From assembly GCA_030704795.1 (NCBI GenBank), contig JAUYCZ010000012.1:1-38222 (forward strand): a stretch of 38,222 nt of DNA. The letters run 5' to 3'. The stretch is from a bacterium (lineage in GTDB: Bacteria > Patescibacteriota > Minisyncoccia > Minisyncoccales > GWA2-46-15). How positions within the stretch are numbered: the stretch's first letter is position 1; the number at the start of each line of letters is the position of its first letter. Below are positions 5,284 to 33,115 of this stretch, in pieces. The notes beneath the pieces are model-generated. The model made no database searches. It had not been told where the DNA came from and saw only the letters and a program-made list of their open reading frames with translations. The position numbers were made by a program, and so were the translations under genes.

Positions 5284-7038
5284 TTACTCAATAATGACTC
5301 TTAAGATTTCTTCCACCGAGGTCAGTCCCTGGGCCGCCTTAATAAATCCGTCTTCAATCATGGTCATCATGCCCTCCTTTTGTGCCTGGGCCTGAATTTG
5401 GTCGGCCGTCGCTTGTTTGACGATTAGTTCTTTGATGGCAGAACTGACGGTTAAAACTTCATAAATGCCCACCCGGCCGCGATAGCCTTCGGGGCATTCT
5501 TTGGAAGACTTGGGTCGATAAAAATTAATATCTTCCCAGGCGTCTTGGGGCTTGACGATTCTTTCTTCTTTAAGAACGGTTAAGATCTTTTCTAAATTGC
5601 AGTATTTGGCGATGTTTTTTAATTCCGAGGGTTTAAACTTGTAAGCCACTTTATCGTCGGTTAAGCGGCGAACCAATCTCTGGGCCAGGATGACGTTCAG
5701 GGTCGAAGAAATCAAAAAGGGCTCAACCTTCATATCAATCAAACGGGGGATGGATCCGGCCGCCGAGTTGGTGTGGACGGTCGAAAGAACCAGGTGGCCG
5801 GTCAGAGAGGCATTGATGGCCAAGCTGGCGGTTTCATTATCTCTAATTTCACCGACCATGATGACGTCTGGATCTTGTCTGACCAGAGAACGAAGGCCCG
5901 AAGCGAAGGTCAGGCCGATCTTGGGATTGACCTGGGTTTGATTCGTCCGGGGCATACGGTATTCCACCGGATCTTCAACGGTGGAAATATTGATCTCCGG
6001 GGTATTTAAAATCTCCATCATAGCGTAAAGAGTCGTGGTTTTACCCGAACCGGTCGGGCCCGTGATCAAAATCATGCCCACCGGCTTTCTTAAATTAGTT
6101 TGGATCTTTTCCAAAGCCTCGCCGCTGATGCCCAGCTCTTCCAGAGTTAAAGCCGTCGTGCTCTCGGCGAGTAACCTCATGACCACTTTTTCTCCATCGA
6201 AAACGGGCAGGATGGAAACACGAATAGAATATTTATAATCTTCGGTTTCGGTTTTAAACCGGCCATCCTGGGGCAAACGGTGTTCGTCGAGCTTTAAATT
6301 GGCTAAAACCTTGATCCGGGCGACGATGCCCGCCAAAACCCTCTTGGGTAAAATCATCGCTTCTCTCAAAATGCCGTCGATCCGATAACGCACCAAAATA
6401 TCTTTTTCGAACGGTTCGATGTGAATATCGGAAGCTCTTTGCAAAATGGCGTGCCGCAAAAGAGTATCAACGATCTTGATAATGGGCAGATCCTGCGCCA
6501 CCTTTTCCAATTCTGCGTCTTCCAAGGGCAGTTCTCCCGCCTCCGGGACGGACTTAATTAAAGCCTTGGCCTGTCGTGAAATAATTTCCCCAAACTCAGC
6601 TTCCAGGCTCTGATGATACTGCCTCAAGACGTTCTTGATACCTTGAACGGTGGTCAGCCGCGGCAAGATTTTCAGATTCGCCTTTTTTTTAATGAAATCG
6701 ATGGTTCCCAGATCTTCCGGATCAAGCATGGCCACCTCCAAGTTATTACCCCGTCTGCGAAAGGAAACAATATTATGGGTTCGGGCAATTGGTTCCGGGA
6801 TTATCTTTAAGGCCTCGGGATCAATTTTCTCTTTCTCTAAATTGACGAAAGGGATGCCGAAGATATAGGCTTCGAGCTTGGCCAGTTCTTCTTGGGTGAT
6901 CAGTCCCTGAGAAATCAAAACATCGCCAATTCTTTGATTAGTTTCCCGGGCGACCTTCTCGGCCTCATCAAACTGCTCTTCCTTGAGCAGATTGGCGTCT
7001 AAGAGAAAAGCTTTCAGTTGTTGAGGTTCGACGCGCAT
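5284..7038 (-). CDS. pilB: Type IV pilus assembly ATPase (PilB/GspE) with MshEN-like N-terminus
   Basis: ASDIHIEP, LPQDGR, Walker A GPTGSGKTT, Asp box TVEDPVEY, Walker B RQDPDVIMVGEIRD, His box GHLVLSTVH. Confidence 0.95.
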   Translation of the reverse strand: MRVEPQQLKAFLLDANLLKEEQFDEAEKVARETNQRIGDVLISQGLITQEELAKLEAYIFGIPFVNLEKEKIDPEALKIIPEPIARTHNIVSFRRRGNNLEVAMLDPEDLGTIDFIKKKANLKILPRLTTVQGIKNVLRQYHQSLEAEFGEIISRQAKALIKSVPEAGELPLEDAELEKVAQDLPIIKIVDTLLRHAILQRASDIHIEPFEKDILVRYRIDGILREAMILPKRVLAGIVARIKVLANLKLDEHRLPQDGRFKTETEDYKYSIRVSILPVFDGEKVVMRLLAESTTALTLEELGISGEALEKIQTNLRKPVGMILITGPTGSGKTTTLYAMMEILNTPEINISTVEDPVEYRMPRTNQTQVNPKIGLTFASGLRSLVRQDPDVIMVGEIRDNETASLAINASLTGHLVLSTVHTNSAAGSIPRLIDMKVEPFLISSTLNVILAQRLVRRLTDDKVAYKFKPSELKNIAKYCNLEKILTVLKEERIVKPQDAWEDINFYRPKSSKECPEGYRGRVGIYEVLTVSSAIKELIVKQATADQIQAQAQKEGMMTMIEDGFIKAAQGLTSVEEILRVIIE

Positions 7039-7523: not shown

Positions 7524-8462
7524 CTAATGTTTTATCGGTATAGTGAACCAAAAAGTTGATCCTTCGCCCTCTTTTGATTTAAAGCTCAGCTTGCCGCCGG
7601 ACTTTTCCACGATCGCCTTGGCGATATAGAGCCCCAGACCCGAACCCTGGGCTTGATGACGAAAAGCATTGCCGCCGCGGAAAAACTTTTGGCCGATGTA
7701 TTTTTGGTCATCAGGGAAAATTCCAATTCCATTGTCAACGACCTCAAAATAGAGACCGTTGTTTTTCTTATTGAGAGTGACTTCAACTAAGCCCCGACCC
7801 TTGGTGTAGCGGATGGCATTGTCTAAAAGGTTTTCTATAGCTTGGCCAATTTGAAAAGGATCAAAAAGGGTTTCGGGCAGATTATTTTCTGCCGACAATC
7901 TAACTTCGACATTGGAAGCACGAGCTAGGGGATCTAGCCGGGCGATGGTTTTCTGGACCAATTCTGCCAAAGAAGCTTTCTCCTTCTTGAACAAAAACTC
8001 ATTGCTTTCGATTCGGGAAACGGTTAAAAGATCGGAAACCAGTTCTTCCATTCGTTGACCGTTTTCTCTCAAAATCTGCAGATAGTTGGTTTGTTTTTCC
8101 GGCACCTGTTCAACTTTACCCGAAATTAAGAGATCAATAATCCATCTTAAGTTGGCCAGGGGCGCCCGGAGCTGATGAGAAACAATACTGATAAACTCGG
8201 CCTTTAACCGAACGACCTCGGCCAGCCTTTCAAAGCTCTTGGTAATAGAAAAACCAATGATCATTAAAAGCGTTGACACTCCCAAGACAATCAGGACGAC
8301 GATCTCCGGGTCTTCGGCGTACCCGACTCCGATAAAATAGAGAGTGATAGAAGAGGTAATGACGACAAAACCTAAAATCAAGAAGAGAAACTGCGGACAC
8401 TGCCAAAGCGAAAGTCCGTATTTTTTGCATTGCTTCGCGATATTAAGAGAATCTAACAGCAT
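7524..8462 (-). CDS. Membrane sensor histidine kinase (2 TM, HisKA, HATPase_c)
   Basis: H-box FISIVSHQLRAPL, N-box NLLDNAIRY, G1 DNGIGI, G2 GSGLGLYI. The real start is taken as ATG 8462, because the track's extension to 8630 runs through tRNA-Pro. Confidence 0.92.
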   Translation of the reverse strand: MLLDSLNIAKQCKKYGLSLWQCPQFLFLILGFVVITSSITLYFIGVGYAEDPEIVVLIVLGVSTLLMIIGFSITKSFERLAEVVRLKAEFISIVSHQLRAPLANLRWIIDLLISGKVEQVPEKQTNYLQILRENGQRMEELVSDLLTVSRIESNEFLFKKEKASLAELVQKTIARLDPLARASNVEVRLSAENNLPETLFDPFQIGQAIENLLDNAIRYTKGRGLVEVTLNKKNNGLYFEVVDNGIGIFPDDQKYIGQKFFRGGNAFRHQAQGSGLGLYIAKAIVEKSGGKLSFKSKEGEGSTFWFTIPIKH

Positions 8463-8464
8463 TC

Positions 8465-8493
8465 TTGAATTATACACCAAATTAAAGTAAAGT
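8465..8493. promoter_or_regulatory. Divergent sigma70-type promoters for tRNA-Pro (+) and the kinase (-)
   Basis: Plus strand: TTGAAT (8465-8470), N17, TAAAGT (8488-8493). Minus strand: TATAAT (8474-8469), 6 nt before the kinase ATG. Confidence 0.55.
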
Positions 8494-8501
8494 GGGAAAT
8501 G

Positions 8502-8572
8502 CGGGGCGTAGTGCAACGGTAGCACGAGTGCTTTGGGAGCACTTAGTCCCAGTTCGAATCTGGGCGCCCCGA
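8502..8572 (+). tRNA. tRNA-Pro(TGG), CCA not encoded
   Basis: Acceptor CGGGGCG/CGCCCCG, anticodon arm AGTGC-TTTGGGA-GCACT, T-loop GTTCGAATC. Confidence 0.96.
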
Positions 8573-8649
8573 CACTTCGACTTCGCAAAGCGAAGAAGAA
8601 GTGAGCTGAGCTTGTCGAAGCTCGTCTCACGCTTTGCTTCGCTCAGTGT
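8572..8649. repeat. Composite nested hairpin: a 22-nt REP-like unit split by a 56-nt palindromic insert
   Basis: Outer ends ACACTTCGACTTCGC and TCAGTGT. Inner stems GCAAAGCG/CGCTTTGC, GTGAG/CTCAC and GAGCTT/AAGCTC. CTTCGC is duplicated at 8581 and 8637. Confidence 0.8.
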
Positions 8650-8673
8650 CCTTGACCTTTGAATTTGAAAAAA

Positions 8674-8694
8674 GCCCTGAGTTTGCCGAAGGGC
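8674..8694. repeat. REP-like hairpin copy GCCCTGAGTTTGCCGAAGGGC
   Basis: Stem GCCCT/AGGGC around the core CTGAG-N3-GYCGAAG, which is shared with 8606-8620. Confidence 0.75.
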
Positions 8695-8705
8695 AACAAA
8701 TTAAA

Positions 8706-8960
8706 ATGTTCTCTGTTTACATTCTTCGCAGCCCCAAAAATCACCTCTACGTTGGCTCTACGAGTAATCTTAACTGGCGAATAATCCGTCACAAATCTGG
8801 AGATGGCGCAGAATTTACCAAACGAAATAAAGCGTTTGGGTTGGTATATAAAGAGGAGTTTTCCACTCTATTGGGCGCGCGGCGAAGAGAAGAACAAATT
8901 AAAGGTTGGCGAAGAGAAAAGAAAGAAAATTTAGTTAAATTTGGAAAACCGATTTTATAA
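8706..8960 (+). CDS. Stand-alone GIY-YIG nuclease family protein (YhbQ/UPF0213-like), 84 aa
   Basis: VYILRS...LYVGST, conserved Arg (WRIIRH) and Glu (REEQIKGW). ATG 8706 is preferred. Confidence 0.88.
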   Translation: MFSVYILRSPKNHLYVGSTSNLNWRIIRHKSGDGAEFTKRNKAFGLVYKEEFSTLLGARRREEQIKGWRREKKENLVKFGKPIL

Positions 8961-8972
8961 TATCTCTCGATT

Positions 8973-8989
8973 CTTCGACAGATTCAGGG
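8973..8989. repeat. Degenerate REP-like copy CTTCGACAGATTCAGGG
   Basis: 12/15 match to the reverse complement of the core at 8606-8620, in inverted orientation to the copy at 8674. Confidence 0.55.
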
Positions 8990-9007
8990 TCTCTCAACAC
9001 AAAAATT

Positions 9008-9127
9008 TTAGGCGTCCACCGGTCGTATATTAGCGGCCTTGAAAGAGGCAGAAGAAACCCTTCCTTAATGACAGTTCACAAAGTCGCTAAAGCCCTTGGC
9101 GTTTCTGTGAATAAATTGTTGAACTAA
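9008..9127 (+). pseudogene. 5'-truncated XRE/Cro-family HTH regulator
   Basis: The frame reads LGVHRSYISGLERGRRNPSLMTVHKVAKALGVSVNKLLN*, i.e. the XRE recognition helix and C-terminal helices. There is no in-frame start before the TAA at 8936. Confidence 0.8.
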
Positions 9128-9134
9128 AAAATTT

Positions 9135-9656
9135 ATGAAAATTTTGGTTTTTCTACAAGGCACACTGATAATGCACAAAAGCGCGGTTGGTAAAACCCGC
9201 GAGGAAATTATTGAACAAGTAAAAGCTCAAGAAGAATCAGTTCGCGACTTTAGTTCATACGTTCCCATCGGTAACGCTGTAGAGAAATTAAATAAATGGA
9301 CCGAGCAAGGCGCGGAGATTTTCTATCTAAGCGCCTTAACCGAAGACAAAAAAGCGAGAGGAGATGAAATCATCGGTAAAGAAGGCCTAAAATTTGATCA
9401 GGAAATTTTAGATAGATATGGGTTTCCCGCAGGAGAAATTTATCACCGTCAAAAAGGAGAAAGCTACGCTCAAATAGCCGAAAGAATTGTACCGGACGTT
9501 TTAATTGAAGATGATTGTGAAAGCATTGGCGGAGAAAAAGAAATGACCATCACTTTTGTCAGGCCGGAAATTAAACAAAAAATAAAATCAATTGTTGTTA
9601 AAGAATTTAGCGGCATAGATTATCTACCAGATAATTTGAAGGATTTAATATTATGA
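9135..9656 (+). CDS. HAD-fold-like protein with degenerate motif I
   Basis: N-terminal VFLQGTL stands in place of DxDGTL; FYLSA (motif II-like) and LIEDD (motif IV-like) are present. Confidence 0.5.
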   Translation: MKILVFLQGTLIMHKSAVGKTREEIIEQVKAQEESVRDFSSYVPIGNAVEKLNKWTEQGAEIFYLSALTEDKKARGDEIIGKEGLKFDQEILDRYGFPAGEIYHRQKGESYAQIAERIVPDVLIEDDCESIGGEKEMTITFVRPEIKQKIKSIVVKEFSGIDYLPDNLKDLIL

Positions 9657-31384: not shown

Positions 31385-31455
31385 TCGGGGAGCCGGGAAT
31401 CGAACCCGGTTTTTACGGACCCGAACCGTATGTACTACCGGTGTACTACTCCCCG
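31385..31455 (-). tRNA. tRNA-Pro(CGG), CCA not encoded
   Basis: Acceptor CGGGGAG/CTCCCCG, anticodon arm TACGG-TTCGGGT-CCGTA. Confidence 0.95.
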
Positions 31456-33009: not shown

Positions 33010-33081
33010 GCCCCCATGGTGAAATGGATATCACGCGACGCTTCGGACGTCGAAGTCCGGGTTCGAATCCTGGTGGGGGCA
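33010..33081 (+). tRNA. tRNA-Arg(TCG), CCA not encoded
   Basis: Acceptor GCCCCCA/TGGGGGC, anticodon arm CGACG-CTTCGGA-CGTCG, GTTCGAATC. Confidence 0.95.
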
Positions 33082-33102
33082 CACTTCGACTTTGCTCAGT
33101 GT
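33081..33102. repeat. 22-nt REP-like hairpin starting at the tRNA discriminator
   Basis: ACACTTCGACTTTGCTCAGTGT, one mismatch to the joined ends of 8572-8649. Confidence 0.85.
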
Positions 33103-33115
33103 AAACTATTTCGGC

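What the first reader, a model, noticed from the sequence alone, without database searches (positions are those of the whole stretch)
8572..8989. REP-like hairpin family anchored at tRNA discriminator bases and flanking a GIY-YIG gene
Seen: ACACTTCGACTT(C/T)GCTCAGTGT begins exactly at the discriminator A of two unrelated tRNAs, Pro at 8572 and Arg at 33081, which are 24.5 kb apart. Related cores (CTTCG(A/G)C-N3-5-(C/T)TCAG) lie at 8606, 8677 and 8973. The last two flank the GIY-YIG gene in inverted orientation, and the downstream copy sits where an XRE gene loses its 5' half. Established: REP elements are normally paired with an HUH tyrosine transposase (RAYT) flanked by inverted REPs. Inference: here a minimal GIY-YIG nuclease occupies that position, suggesting a nuclease-associated repeat system that targets tRNA 3' ends. 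I cannot confirm from the sequence whether this has been described. An alternative role is as a tRNA 3'-processing or termination signal.
Basis: partly seen in the sequence, partly recalled or inferred. Interest (0 to 1): 0.8.

Follow-up and report, generated by a model that had tools for sequence, protein, structure and literature searches.

The report
tRNA-linked GIY-YIG nuclease hairpin cassette
The hairpins after two tRNA genes belong to a widespread DNA repeat that regularly brackets a tiny nuclease gene of unknown function, and together they behave like a selfish mobile cassette that I could not find described in print.

Summary
The 22-mer is contiguous after tRNA-Arg (33081-33102). After tRNA-Pro it is split: the first 15 nt are at 8572-8586 and the last 12 nt at 8638-8649.

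Window 8573-8989 is lineage-specific. Five congeners carry the same kinase and tRNA-Pro(UGG) but lack the segment.

It holds an 84-aa UPF0213-type GIY-YIG nuclease gene. An inverted hairpin lies upstream and a same-sense hairpin downstream, each with the loop TTCGRC-N3-YTCA and a short covarying stem. A composite hairpin module starts at the first base after the tRNA discriminator.

- Of 152 homologues sampled, 87 have a tRNA within 250 nt, always on the same strand.
- The tRNA type follows the nuclease clade. The window's clade is found only beside tRNA-Pro.
- CACTTCG starts exactly after the discriminator about ten times more often than at neighbouring offsets.
- Genomes with such trailers almost always carry the nuclease (30/32 against 100/219).
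- In other phyla the same hairpins bracket UPF0213 genes in 13 of 30 loci, without tRNAs.
- Solo hairpins sit in frame inside ThrRS, KsgA and PolX, present in some congeners and absent in others.

A role in tRNA processing or termination is not. The mechanism (homing or trans-mobilisation) is inferred only.

The parts
8502..8572 (+). tRNA-Pro(UGG), no encoded CCA; discriminator A at 8572. It anchors the cassette.
   Evidence: ARAGORN. Rfam tRNA 65.8 bits, 8502-8572.
8573..8603 (+). Left half of the tRNA-end unit U plus its inverted copy: CACTTC-GA-CTTCGC-AAA-GCGAAG-AA-GAAGTG.
   Evidence: Sequence. The same layout occurs in L235, L231, L028 and L038, with CAY/RTG covarying.
8604..8622 (-). Nested hairpin copy AGCT|GAGCTTGTCGA|AGCT. 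It reads TTCGACAAGCTCA on the - strand.
   Evidence: An identical AGCTGAGCTTGTCGAAGCT sits at the same place in L235 and L231.
8623..8649 (+). Right half of unit U, ending in GCTTCGCTCAGTGT. It pairs with CAC at 8573-8575.
   Evidence: 37 of 45 trailers have a complementary YTCR-N2'-G.
8674..8694 (-). Upstream hairpin GCCC|TGAGTTTGCCGAA|GGGC, 11 nt before the ATG. GAAGGG may act as the ribosome-binding site.
   Evidence: An inverted copy lies 8-58 nt upstream of the gene in sister loci of this order and of other phyla.
8706..8960 (+). 84-aa minimal GIY-YIG nuclease gene of the UPF0213/YhbQ family. Y5, Y15, G17, R25, H29 and E62 are invariant in a 12-sequence alignment (A1), so the catalytic set looks intact.
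   Evidence: PF01541 2e-14. Alignment A1. PDB 1zg2 BH0048 E = 4.5e-23. The window protein falls in the tRNA-Pro clade, SH-aLRT 98.
8973..8989 (+). Downstream hairpin copy CTTCGACAGATTCAGGG, same sense as the gene, with a degenerate stem. It marks the right end of the cassette.
   Evidence: A same-sense copy lies 31-57 nt downstream of the gene in sister loci.
9005..9127 (+). 5'-truncated XRE-type HTH gene remnant abutting the cassette's right end.
   Evidence: HTH_3 profile positions 18-54 of 55. Absent from the empty site in G007.
33082..33107 (+). Gene-less copy of unit U (CACTTCGACTTTGCTCAGTG plus TAAAC), starting right after the tRNA-Arg(UCG) discriminator at 33081.
   Evidence: Present in G007 and absent after the orthologous tRNA-Arg in G005, G001 and G004. 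The ...CTCAGYGTAAAC end matches the left end of cassettes L052, L055, L059 and L061.

Best explanation
Window 8573-8989 is one copy of a selfish, tRNA-gene-linked cassette. It consists of a minimal UPF0213 GIY-YIG nuclease gene bracketed by two copies of a dispersed hairpin repeat, inverted upstream and same-sense downstream. The repeat has a conserved loop, TTCGRC-N3-YTCA, and a 3-5 bp covarying stem. A composite hairpin module joins the cassette to the first base after the discriminator of tRNA-Pro. The 20-nt hairpin after tRNA-Arg, and other copies in the genome including some in frame inside genes, are gene-less copies of the same repeat family.

**Shown**
- The cassette is present in some congeners and absent in others.
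- The nuclease genes lie next to tRNA genes and always on the same strand.
- Each nuclease clade goes with a particular tRNA.
- Sister loci carry partial tRNA duplications and terminal inverted repeats.
- The nuclease and the hairpin are coupled at locus level and at genome level.

**Inferred**
- The nuclease is expressed by read-through from the tRNA promoter.
- It cuts cassette-free tRNA genes near the T-loop or 3' end, or cuts hairpin DNA.
- Repair from a cassette-bearing copy installs the cassette together with a fresh tRNA 3' end.
- The hairpins are the nuclease's cis sites. They are also spread in trans, as REPs are by RAYT.
For: **In this genome and genus**
- All 4 GIY-YIG paralogues in the 637-kb genome abut tRNA genes.
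- Empty site: G007 has the kinase, tRNA-Pro, 33 nt, then the orthologue of window gene 9135-9656. Four other congeners also lack the segment.

**Link to tRNA genes**
- 87 of 152 homologues have a tRNA within 250 nt. About 3.6% of the genome lies that close to a tRNA. All 87 are on the same strand as the gene.
- tRNA identity clusters on the protein tree: 27 changes against 47.8 when shuffled, as low in 0 of 200 shuffles.
- The 9 closest relatives (64-76% identity) all follow a tRNA-Pro gene or a 3' piece that looks like one. The rows scored as tRNA-Pro form one clade with SH-aLRT 98.
- Anchoring at discriminator+1: 43 of 95 hits fall at that one spacing.

**Link to the hairpin**
- Co-occurrence with the nuclease gives Fisher p = 7e-8.
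- Covariation: 37 of 45 trailers carry a complementary partner, against a control mean of 1.4, across 8 N2 variants. Stems average 2.5-3.3 bp against 1.0-1.4 when shuffled.
- Hairpin type clusters on the nuclease tree.

**Signs of mobility**
- The protein tree disagrees with taxonomy. L036, L041 and L045 are separated by branch lengths of 0 to 0.11 yet come from three taxonomic families.
- Partial tRNA copies lie on the far side of the gene in 19 of 117 gene-tRNA pairs, with the expected polarity. This genome's contig C4 has terminal inverted repeats plus a 14-nt direct repeat of the tRNA end.
- In other phyla, 13 of 30 UPF0213 loci are flanked by the hairpins in the same layout.
- Solo hairpins inside ThrRS, KsgA and PolX are present in some congeners and absent in others.

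**Expression and activity**
- The catalytic residues are intact.
- No terminator lies between the tRNA and the gene.
Against: - No experiment or transcript data exist. Only metagenome contigs were available.
- The 84-aa protein has no DNA-binding domain, so how it would recognise a site is unknown.
- GIY-YIG enzymes are not known to join DNA strands.
- In the window itself no clean duplicate of the tRNA 3' end follows the cassette. The best candidate matches 13 of 20 positions by eye.
- The junction with the empty site in G007 is not precise.
- Across phyla, 79 of 80 hairpin loci have no GIY-YIG gene within 8 kb.
- 12 of 50 hairpin-bearing genomes show no UPF0213 gene, and I had no baseline frequency for comparison.
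- The clade-specific tRNA could come from shared homology arms rather than from the nuclease's own specificity.
- The sampled loci were chosen by similarity to the window protein, and the hairpins were called with regular expressions.
Confidence: 0.68

Rival explanations
1. The hairpin is an independent miniature mobile or recombinogenic repeat, moved by some other enzyme or by replication slippage. The GIY-YIG genes and tRNA ends are only preferred landing sites or passengers. On this reading the nuclease does not act on the hairpin.
For: - 79 of 80 hairpin loci from other phyla have no GIY-YIG gene within 8 kb.
- 12 of 50 hairpin-bearing genomes show no UPF0213 gene.
- Hairpins occur nested in one another (window 8604-8622) and inside genes.
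- A second, unrelated hairpin family (CAACGTA...) is also anchored at tRNA ends.
Against: - The layout around the gene is constant and oriented, inverted upstream and same-sense downstream, in several phyla.
- Hairpin type clusters on the nuclease tree.
- Genome-level coupling is 30 of 32 against 100 of 219.
- No other candidate enzyme gene lies in the cassettes, which are about 320-560 nt long.
Confidence: 0.14
2. The hairpins are host RNA signals. They would be tRNA 3'-trailer structures that guide RNase Z, RNase P or exonuclease processing, termination or stability. The GIY-YIG gene would simply be co-transcribed.
For: - The unit starts exactly after the discriminator of CCA-less tRNAs.
- Its stem covaries.
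- It lies within the tRNA transcription unit.
- GAAGG in the upstream hairpin could occlude the ribosome-binding site.
Against: - Only 4 of 39 tRNAs in the genome carry it.
- It is absent after the orthologous tRNA-Pro and tRNA-Arg of congeners.
- No U-tract or terminator is present.
- Folding is weak: z = -2.0 for the composite module and +1.0 for the compact unit.
- There is no Rfam match.
- The same hairpin occurs in both orientations, far from tRNAs, in frame inside ThrRS, KsgA and PolX, and in more than 15 phyla.
Confidence: 0.08
3. The UPF0213 nuclease is a domesticated host factor, for example in repair of tRNA genes or stalled forks at structured DNA, or in defence. The hairpins would be by-products of its repair activity rather than parts of a selfish element.
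For: - The family is related to the structure-specific nuclease SLX1.
- Hairpins mark synteny breakpoints at the tRNA-Pro and tRNA-Arg ends.
- From my own knowledge, not checked here: the E. coli homologue yhbQ is single-copy and not tRNA-linked.
Against: - Copy number varies from 0 to 9 per genome, and the gene is absent from about half the genomes of the order.
- The phylogeny is discordant with taxonomy.
- Some cassettes have terminal inverted repeats plus direct repeats of the tRNA end.
- Degraded copies with internal stop codons exist.
Confidence: 0.05

Closest known systems
REP / REPIN elements with their RAYT transposases (REPtrons; PMC3116915, PMC3337134)
   Same: A short palindromic repeat is dispersed in many copies. 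A small nuclease gene is flanked by inverted copies of that repeat. Repeats far outnumber the gene. Repeat type goes with nuclease lineage.
   Different: The enzyme is a GIY-YIG (UPF0213) nuclease, not an HUH/Y1 transposase. The conserved part of the repeat is a 13-nt loop, not a stem with a GTAG or CGTC tag. RAYTs are reported as single-copy and vertically inherited (PMC5581495; bioRxiv 10.1101/2022.05.22.493013). The gene here is multi-copy, and its tree conflicts with taxonomy. In this phylum it is tied to tRNA genes.
Phage T4/T6 SegB, a free-standing GIY-YIG homing endonuclease in the tRNA gene cluster (PMC2330249, PMC13096335)
   Same: A GIY-YIG nuclease gene lies between or beside tRNA genes. 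It is present in some relatives and absent in others. It spreads by cutting the cassette-free tRNA region.
   Different: From my own knowledge, SegB is larger and carries DNA-binding modules, whereas this protein is the bare 84-aa catalytic domain. SegB has no associated hairpin repeat family, no terminal inverted repeats and no duplicated tRNA ends. It is a phage gene, not a chromosomal one.
UPF0213 / YhbQ (COG2827) proteins BH0048 (PDB 1zg2) and EF2693 (1ywl), and the SLX1 URI domain
   Same: The protein family is the same (E = 4.5e-23 and 1.5e-18).
   Different: Both PDB entries are titled hypothetical proteins. No paper I could search links the family to repeats or tRNA genes.
Rickettsia palindromic elements (RPEs)
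   Same: Small palindromic repeats are inserted in frame into conserved protein genes and kept as extra peptide segments. Here the hairpin reads PSTSSG or LRQAQGK in ThrRS, KsgA and PolX.
   Different: From my own knowledge, RPEs are 100-150 bp, restricted to one genus and have no known enzyme. This hairpin is 18-20 nt, occurs in more than 15 phyla and is coupled to a nuclease gene.
IS200/IS605-family single-strand transposons
   Same: Subterminal hairpins serve as cis elements. Insertion is at a fixed position 3' of a specific host sequence. The elements are very small.
   Different: Those elements use an HUH TnpA with a covalent intermediate. No such gene is present here. Some sister cassettes show 14-19 nt direct repeats of the target, which IS200/IS605 elements do not make.

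Membership tests
REP/RAYT (REPtron) | Short palindromic repeat dispersed in multiple copies in the genome | tested here: met
   14 copies with a stem of at least 3 bp in the 637-kb genome. Hundreds occur across the fetched loci.
REP/RAYT (REPtron) | Associated gene flanked by inverted copies of the repeat | tested here: met
   Window copies at 8674-8694(-) and 8973-8989(+). The same layout occurs in 13 of 30 loci from other phyla and in L176.
REP/RAYT (REPtron) | Associated gene is an HUH Y1 (IS200-like) transposase | tested here: not met
   The only Pfam hit is PF01541 GIY-YIG. The closest PDB relatives are UPF0213 proteins and SLX1.
REP/RAYT (REPtron) | Conserved unpaired GTAG or CGTC tag at one end of a long stem with a short loop | tested here: not met
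   The conserved part here is a 13-nt loop closed by 3-5 bp. This differs from PMC3733652.
Free-standing GIY-YIG homing endonuclease (Seg-like) | GIY-YIG catalytic residues intact (Tyr, Tyr, Arg, His/Tyr, Glu) | tested here: met
   Y5, Y15, G17, R25, H29 and E62 are invariant in A1.
Free-standing GIY-YIG homing endonuclease (Seg-like) | Separate DNA-binding domain that gives long-site specificity | tested here: not met
   The protein is 84 aa, and the GIY-YIG domain covers residues 2-75.
Free-standing GIY-YIG homing endonuclease (Seg-like) | Gene present or absent at a conserved site among close relatives | tested here: met
   G007 and four other congeners lack it at tRNA-Pro(UGG).
Free-standing GIY-YIG homing endonuclease (Seg-like) | Cleaves the cassette-free allele and is copied in by repair | not testable with these tools
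   This needs enzyme and genetic assays.
UPF0213 / YhbQ protein family | Full-length sequence similarity to family members | tested here: met
   1zg2 (BH0048) E = 4.5e-23 and 1ywl (EF2693) E = 1.5e-18.
Integrase-mediated tRNA-targeting island | Tyrosine or serine recombinase gene inside the element | tested here: not met
   The 560-nt insert holds only the 84-aa ORF and an XRE remnant.
Integrase-mediated tRNA-targeting island | Direct repeat of the tRNA 3' end at the far border | tested here: inconclusive
   In the window only a 13-of-20 match is seen by eye at 8981-9000. The repeat is clear in sister loci L065, L070 and L233 and in this genome's contig C4.
Intrinsic terminator / tRNA 3'-processing signal | Stable GC-rich stem followed by a U-tract, conserved at orthologous tRNAs | tested here: not met
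   No terminator lies between 8573 and 8706. Folding z = +1.0 for the compact unit. The unit is absent from orthologous tRNAs in congeners.

The most novel reading that the evidence does not exclude
UPF0213 mini GIY-YIG nucleases and the TTCGAC-N3-CTCA hairpin may form a mobile-DNA system that spans many bacterial phyla and has no transposase or integrase. It would be a GIY-YIG counterpart of REP/RAYT.

On this reading the 18-20 nt hairpin is itself the transposable unit. It is small enough to land in frame in essential genes. In CPR bacteria the nuclease cassettes would have specialised on tRNA genes, and they would regenerate the tRNA end that they disrupt. This would give a large protein family of unknown function its first proposed role.
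Probability: 0.33. Interest if true: 0.9.

Novelty: new variant of a known kind. Interest (0 to 1): 0.8.

Why it matters
- **A role for UPF0213.** The family (YhbQ, BH0048) is a widespread bacterial protein family with solved structures and no known function. A repeat-associated, tRNA-linked selfish role would be its first functional assignment.
- **An explanation for annotation clutter.** The hairpin occurs in more than 15 phyla. It produces recurrent spurious or inserted peptides (PSTSSG, LRQAQGK, FDKLR) in annotated proteins.
- **Genome plasticity in CPR bacteria.** The cassettes mark synteny breakpoints at tRNA genes in ultra-small genomes. They leave broken tRNA copies that confuse annotation.
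- **A possible new tool.** An 84-aa nuclease with a roughly 20-nt DNA hairpin partner would be among the smallest self-contained mobile systems known, and a possible structure-directed DNA tool.

Tried and rejected
- **Rfam scan** of 8300-9300 at E up to 10 found only the tRNA.
- **RNA folding.** The composite module gives z = -2.0 and the compact unit z = +1.0, so neither is a stable stand-alone RNA hairpin.
- **Promoter and terminator scan.** Nothing lies between the tRNA and the gene.
- **Transcript evidence.** No RNA runs exist, only metagenome contigs.
- **Literature.** No paper holds the hairpin sequence or its three peptide readings. None links GIY-YIG with RAYT or REPIN or says anything useful about YhbQ or UPF0213. 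CGTC/GTAG-tagged REPs (PMC3733652) were considered and rejected, because they have 4-5 nt loops, 8-9 bp stems and a terminal tag.
- **Hairpins always next to GIY-YIG?** Rejected. Only 1 of 80 loci from other phyla has the gene within 8 kb.
- **Chance for the 18-mer.** About 35 chance hits would be expected in 596 Gb. The clustered copies and covarying stems do.
- **Precise empty sites at the two tRNA ends.** Not obtained. Downstream DNA differs in every congener.
- **The 8973 core as a decayed copy of the old tRNA-Pro T-arm and 3' end.** It matches 13 of 20 positions by eye. I could not settle this. The conserved same-sense downstream hairpin in other loci favours a real hairpin copy.
- **NCBIfam** gave only a sub-threshold group I intron endonuclease hit.
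Full report
**1. Observation**

tRNA-Pro(UGG) occupies 8502-8572 and tRNA-Arg(UCG) occupies 33010-33081. Neither encodes CCA.

The 22-mer ACACTTCGACTTTGCTCAGTGT is contiguous only at 33081-33102. After tRNA-Pro the unit is split:
- ACACTTCGACTTCGC lies at 8572-8586.
- TTCGCTCAGTGT lies at 8638-8649.
- The stretch between them contains an inverted core.

The core CTTCGRC-N3-5-YTCAG occurs four times in the window, against 0.06 expected.

The ORF at 8706-8960 is a GIY-YIG domain protein (PF01541, 2e-14). The frame from 8963 matches only positions 18-54 of the 55-position HTH_3 profile, so it is a 5'-truncated XRE gene.

**2. This genome**

The window is contig C29 of a 637-kb, 30-contig genome of the CPR (candidate phyla radiation) type.

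The same trailer follows 4 of 39 tRNAs:
- It is compact after tRNA-Arg(UCG) and tRNA-Pro(GGG).
- It carries an internal insert after tRNA-Pro(UGG) and the initiator tRNA-Met.

All four GIY-YIG paralogues abut tRNA genes.
- On contig C30 the gene lies between a 5' fragment of tRNA-fMet and the intact tRNA-fMet.
- On contig C4 the layout is tRNA-Gln(CUG) | TATCCTTCG...GGA - gene - TCC...GAAGGATA | CCAAGCCCCGCAGC. That is a pair of terminal inverted repeats plus a 14-nt direct repeat of the tRNA end.

Fourteen hairpin copies in the genome have a stem of at least 3 bp. Half of them lie inside long ORFs.

**3. Filled and empty sites at the tRNAs**

Five congeners keep the histidine kinase and tRNA-Pro(UGG) but lack 8573-9132. 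In G007 the tRNA is followed after 33 nt by the orthologue of the window gene at 9135-9656.

The hairpin after tRNA-Arg is shared with G007. It is absent in G005, G001 and G004, whose downstream genes also differ.

Both tRNA ends are therefore synteny breakpoints, and no base-precise empty junction was available.

**4. Survey of the order**

130 of 251 genomes have between 1 and 9 small homologues. In 80 fetched loci:
- 42 of 79 genes have an intact tRNA within 200 nt.
- All 47 tRNAs seen within the 800-nt flanks are on the gene's strand.
- All 17 hairpin cores lie within 200 nt of the gene, and none lies in the outer flanks.

The pattern GTTCRA-N10-20-CACTTCG gives 95 hits.
- 43 hits fall at the one spacing that puts CACTTCG right after the discriminator.
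- The other spacings have 2-11 hits each.
- A secondary peak of 10 hits represents ...A-CCA-CTTCG.

Genomes with an anchored copy carry the nuclease in 30 of 32 cases, against 100 of 219 for the rest (Fisher p = 7e-8).

**5. Closest relatives and architecture**

A metagenome scan found more than 570 relatives. The nine closest (64-76% identity) all follow a tRNA-Pro gene (CGG, GGG or UGG) or a 3' fragment that looks like tRNA-Pro.

On a tree of 152 proteins:
- 87 have a tRNA within 250 nt, all on the same strand.
- tRNA identity is clustered: 27 changes against 47.8 when shuffled, as low in 0 of 200 shuffles.
- The rows scored as tRNA-Pro form one clade with SH-aLRT 98.

The shared layout is: discriminator | C-N2-TTCGAC...CTCA-N2'-G ... 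GAA-N2'-G + (N)CCTGAGCnnnnCGAAGG(N) + 8-11 nt + ATG. L235 and L231 have the same interrupted unit as the window, including an identical AGCTGAGCTTGTCGAAGCT.

N2 covaries (AC, AT, CC, CT, TT, CA, TC, GC). Of 45 distinct trailers:
- 37 carry the complementary YTCR-N2'-G, against a control mean of 1.4 and maximum of 5.
- 24 carry GAA-N2'-G, against a control mean of 3.0.

Closing stems beside the core average 2.5-3.3 bp against 1.0-1.4 when shuffled, with 15 distinct 3-bp stems.

Hairpin sub-type clusters on the nuclease tree. Proteins separated by branch lengths of only 0 to 0.11 occur in three taxonomic families, which indicates horizontal transfer.

**6. tRNA duplications**

In 19 of 117 gene-tRNA pairs, an exact copy of at least 13 nt of part of the tRNA lies on the other side of the gene.
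- When the tRNA is upstream, the copy is the tRNA's 3' end (about positions 55-72) in 8 cases.
- When the tRNA is downstream, the copy is 5' or internal.

This suggests that cassettes enter inside the tRNA gene, near the T-loop, and bring or leave a replacement segment. That would explain why the hairpin abuts the discriminator.

**7. Other phyla**

About 35 would be expected by chance.
- The hosts include Bacteroidota, Cyanobacteria, Actinomycetota, Chloroflexota, Acidobacteriota, Planctomycetota, Nitrospirota, several classes of Pseudomonadota and several CPR groups.
- The flanks form longer covarying stems, and copies often come in inverted pairs.
- Only 1 of 80 loci has the nuclease gene within 8 kb.
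- 38 of 50 of these genomes hold 1-9 UPF0213 genes.

In 13 of the 30 best gene loci the hairpins lie within 250 nt of the gene (50 copies near, 21 far). The typical layout is an inverted copy 25-58 nt upstream and a same-sense copy 31-57 nt downstream, as in the window. Only one of the 30 loci lies next to a tRNA-like gene, a tmRNA.

The nuclease-plus-inverted-hairpins unit is therefore general. The tRNA linkage is a speciality of the CPR clades.

**8. Solo hairpins are DNA insertions**

In this genome the hairpin is read in frame as PSTSSG or LRQAQGK inside threonyl-tRNA synthetase, KsgA, a PolX/PHP protein and one further gene. Alignment with congeners shows:

| Gene | This genome | Congeners |
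|---|---|---|
| ThrRS | GGT-CCTTCGACAAGCTCAGGA-TTT | GGT-AAAGAA-TTC in the four congeners aligned across the site |
| KsgA | 24-nt hairpin insert | Present in G001 with a different central triplet; absent in four others |
| PolX | Full hairpin | G007 is 12 nt shorter (CCCTTCG-TAAAC) |

**9. Protein**

The family profile matches UPF0213 proteins BH0048 (1zg2, E = 4.5e-23) and EF2693 (1ywl), then SLX1. Y5, Y15, G17, R25, H29 and E62 are invariant. From my own knowledge, these correspond to the I-TevI catalytic set.

**10. How it most likely works**

Shown:
- A lineage-specific cassette.
- A strict link to tRNA genes with shared orientation.
- A tRNA type specific to each nuclease clade.
- Duplicated tRNA segments and terminal inverted repeats in sister copies.
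- Coupling between the nuclease and the hairpin.
- Hairpin insertions that are present in some congeners and absent in others.

Inferred:
- The gene is expressed by read-through from the tRNA promoter. No terminator intervenes.
- GAAGG in the 3' arm of the upstream hairpin may be a sequestered ribosome-binding site.
- The nuclease cuts cassette-free tRNA genes or hairpin DNA.
- Repair copies the cassette in.
- The hairpins serve as cis sites and are also spread in trans.

**11. Rivals**

- A host signal for tRNA processing or termination is contradicted by several results. Distribution among tRNAs is patchy, orthologous tRNAs lack the unit, and there is no U-tract. Folding is weak and Rfam finds nothing. 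Copies also occur in both orientations, inside genes and across phyla.
- An independent hairpin element with the nuclease as a passenger remains possible. Most hairpins are far from any nuclease gene.
- A domesticated repair role fits the variable copy number and the discordant tree poorly.

**12. Novelty**

No searchable paper contains the hairpin or its peptide readings. None links GIY-YIG with REP, RAYT or REPIN, or assigns a role to UPF0213.

Earlier notes from this scan describe similar cassettes in other genomes. I treated them as leads, and the tests above are independent of them.

**13. Caveats**

- Loci were sampled by similarity to the window protein.
- Hairpins were called by regular expression.
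- Many of the genomes are incomplete MAGs.
- No baseline frequency of UPF0213 in hairpin-free genomes of other phyla was available.
- There are no expression or activity data.

Noticed in passing
Own genome: C7:4646, C20:13068, C30:109369(-), C30:79400(-), C18:15706(-). Not in the window.: A second, unrelated AT-rich hairpin family starts with CAACGTA right after the discriminator of at least 5 tRNAs. Across the order about 27 of 41 hits have that exact spacing. In L045 and L064 it lies between a tRNA and a GIY-YIG gene.
   Followed up: partly
Own genome C30:109593-109960 (-): A GIY-YIG gene lies between an intact initiator tRNA-Met and an upstream duplicate of its 5' ~45 nt. In the duplicate, the D-arm and anticodon-stem segment is replaced by a hairpin (TCCCGCTTACAGCGGGA).
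   Followed up: partly
Own genome C4:59093-59515 (-): A ~340-nt element holds only a GIY-YIG gene. It has inverted ends TATCCTTCG...CGGA / TCCG...GAAGGATA and a 14-nt direct repeat (CCAAGCCCCGCAGC) of the 3' end of tRNA-Gln(CUG).
   Followed up: partly
Own genome C30:95874, C2:5294, C17:40524, C4:69013: The 18-nt hairpin is translated in frame (PSTSSG or LRQAQGK) inside ThrRS, KsgA, a PolX/PHP protein and one other gene. Congeners lack it or carry variants. G007 PolX keeps a form 12 nt shorter, CCCTTCG-TAAAC, which may be a footprint.
   Followed up: yes
L022 (G007:C22) about 1990-2115: Downstream of the empty site lies a second, disrupted tRNA-Pro copy. Its 5' arm and its 3' 28 nt are separated by about 70 nt of inserted hairpin-like DNA.
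   Followed up: no
L004 (G002:C24) 1380-1520: An intact tRNA-Pro(GGG) is followed by an orphan 3' fragment of another tRNA-Pro(GGG). That fragment still carries CACTTCGACTTCGCTCAGTG. It looks like a tRNA replacement event.
   Followed up: no
window 8675-8925: A contig from an unrelated groundwater study (run X2) is 100% identical over 251 nt of the nuclease gene. Its pieces matching the adjacent kinase gene differ by about 6%.
   Followed up: no
Own genome C17:28067 and C30:23148: Two identical copies of a longer variant, CTCCTTCGACCCCGAGCTCAGGACCGAGGGGCAA, lie on different contigs.
   Followed up: no
Own genome C2 ~5380-5440 (KsgA N-terminal part): A low-complexity repeat (TTCCAAA/CCCAAA, read as NSKFQSPNSKQIQNPKTQ) is inserted in KsgA. 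At the same place G001 carries a hairpin copy.
   Followed up: no
window 31385-31455 (-): The window's other tRNA-Pro (CGG) has no repeat trailer. It has an ordinary terminator-like hairpin instead (GTGGGAGGTCCGACCTCCCAC).
   Followed up: no
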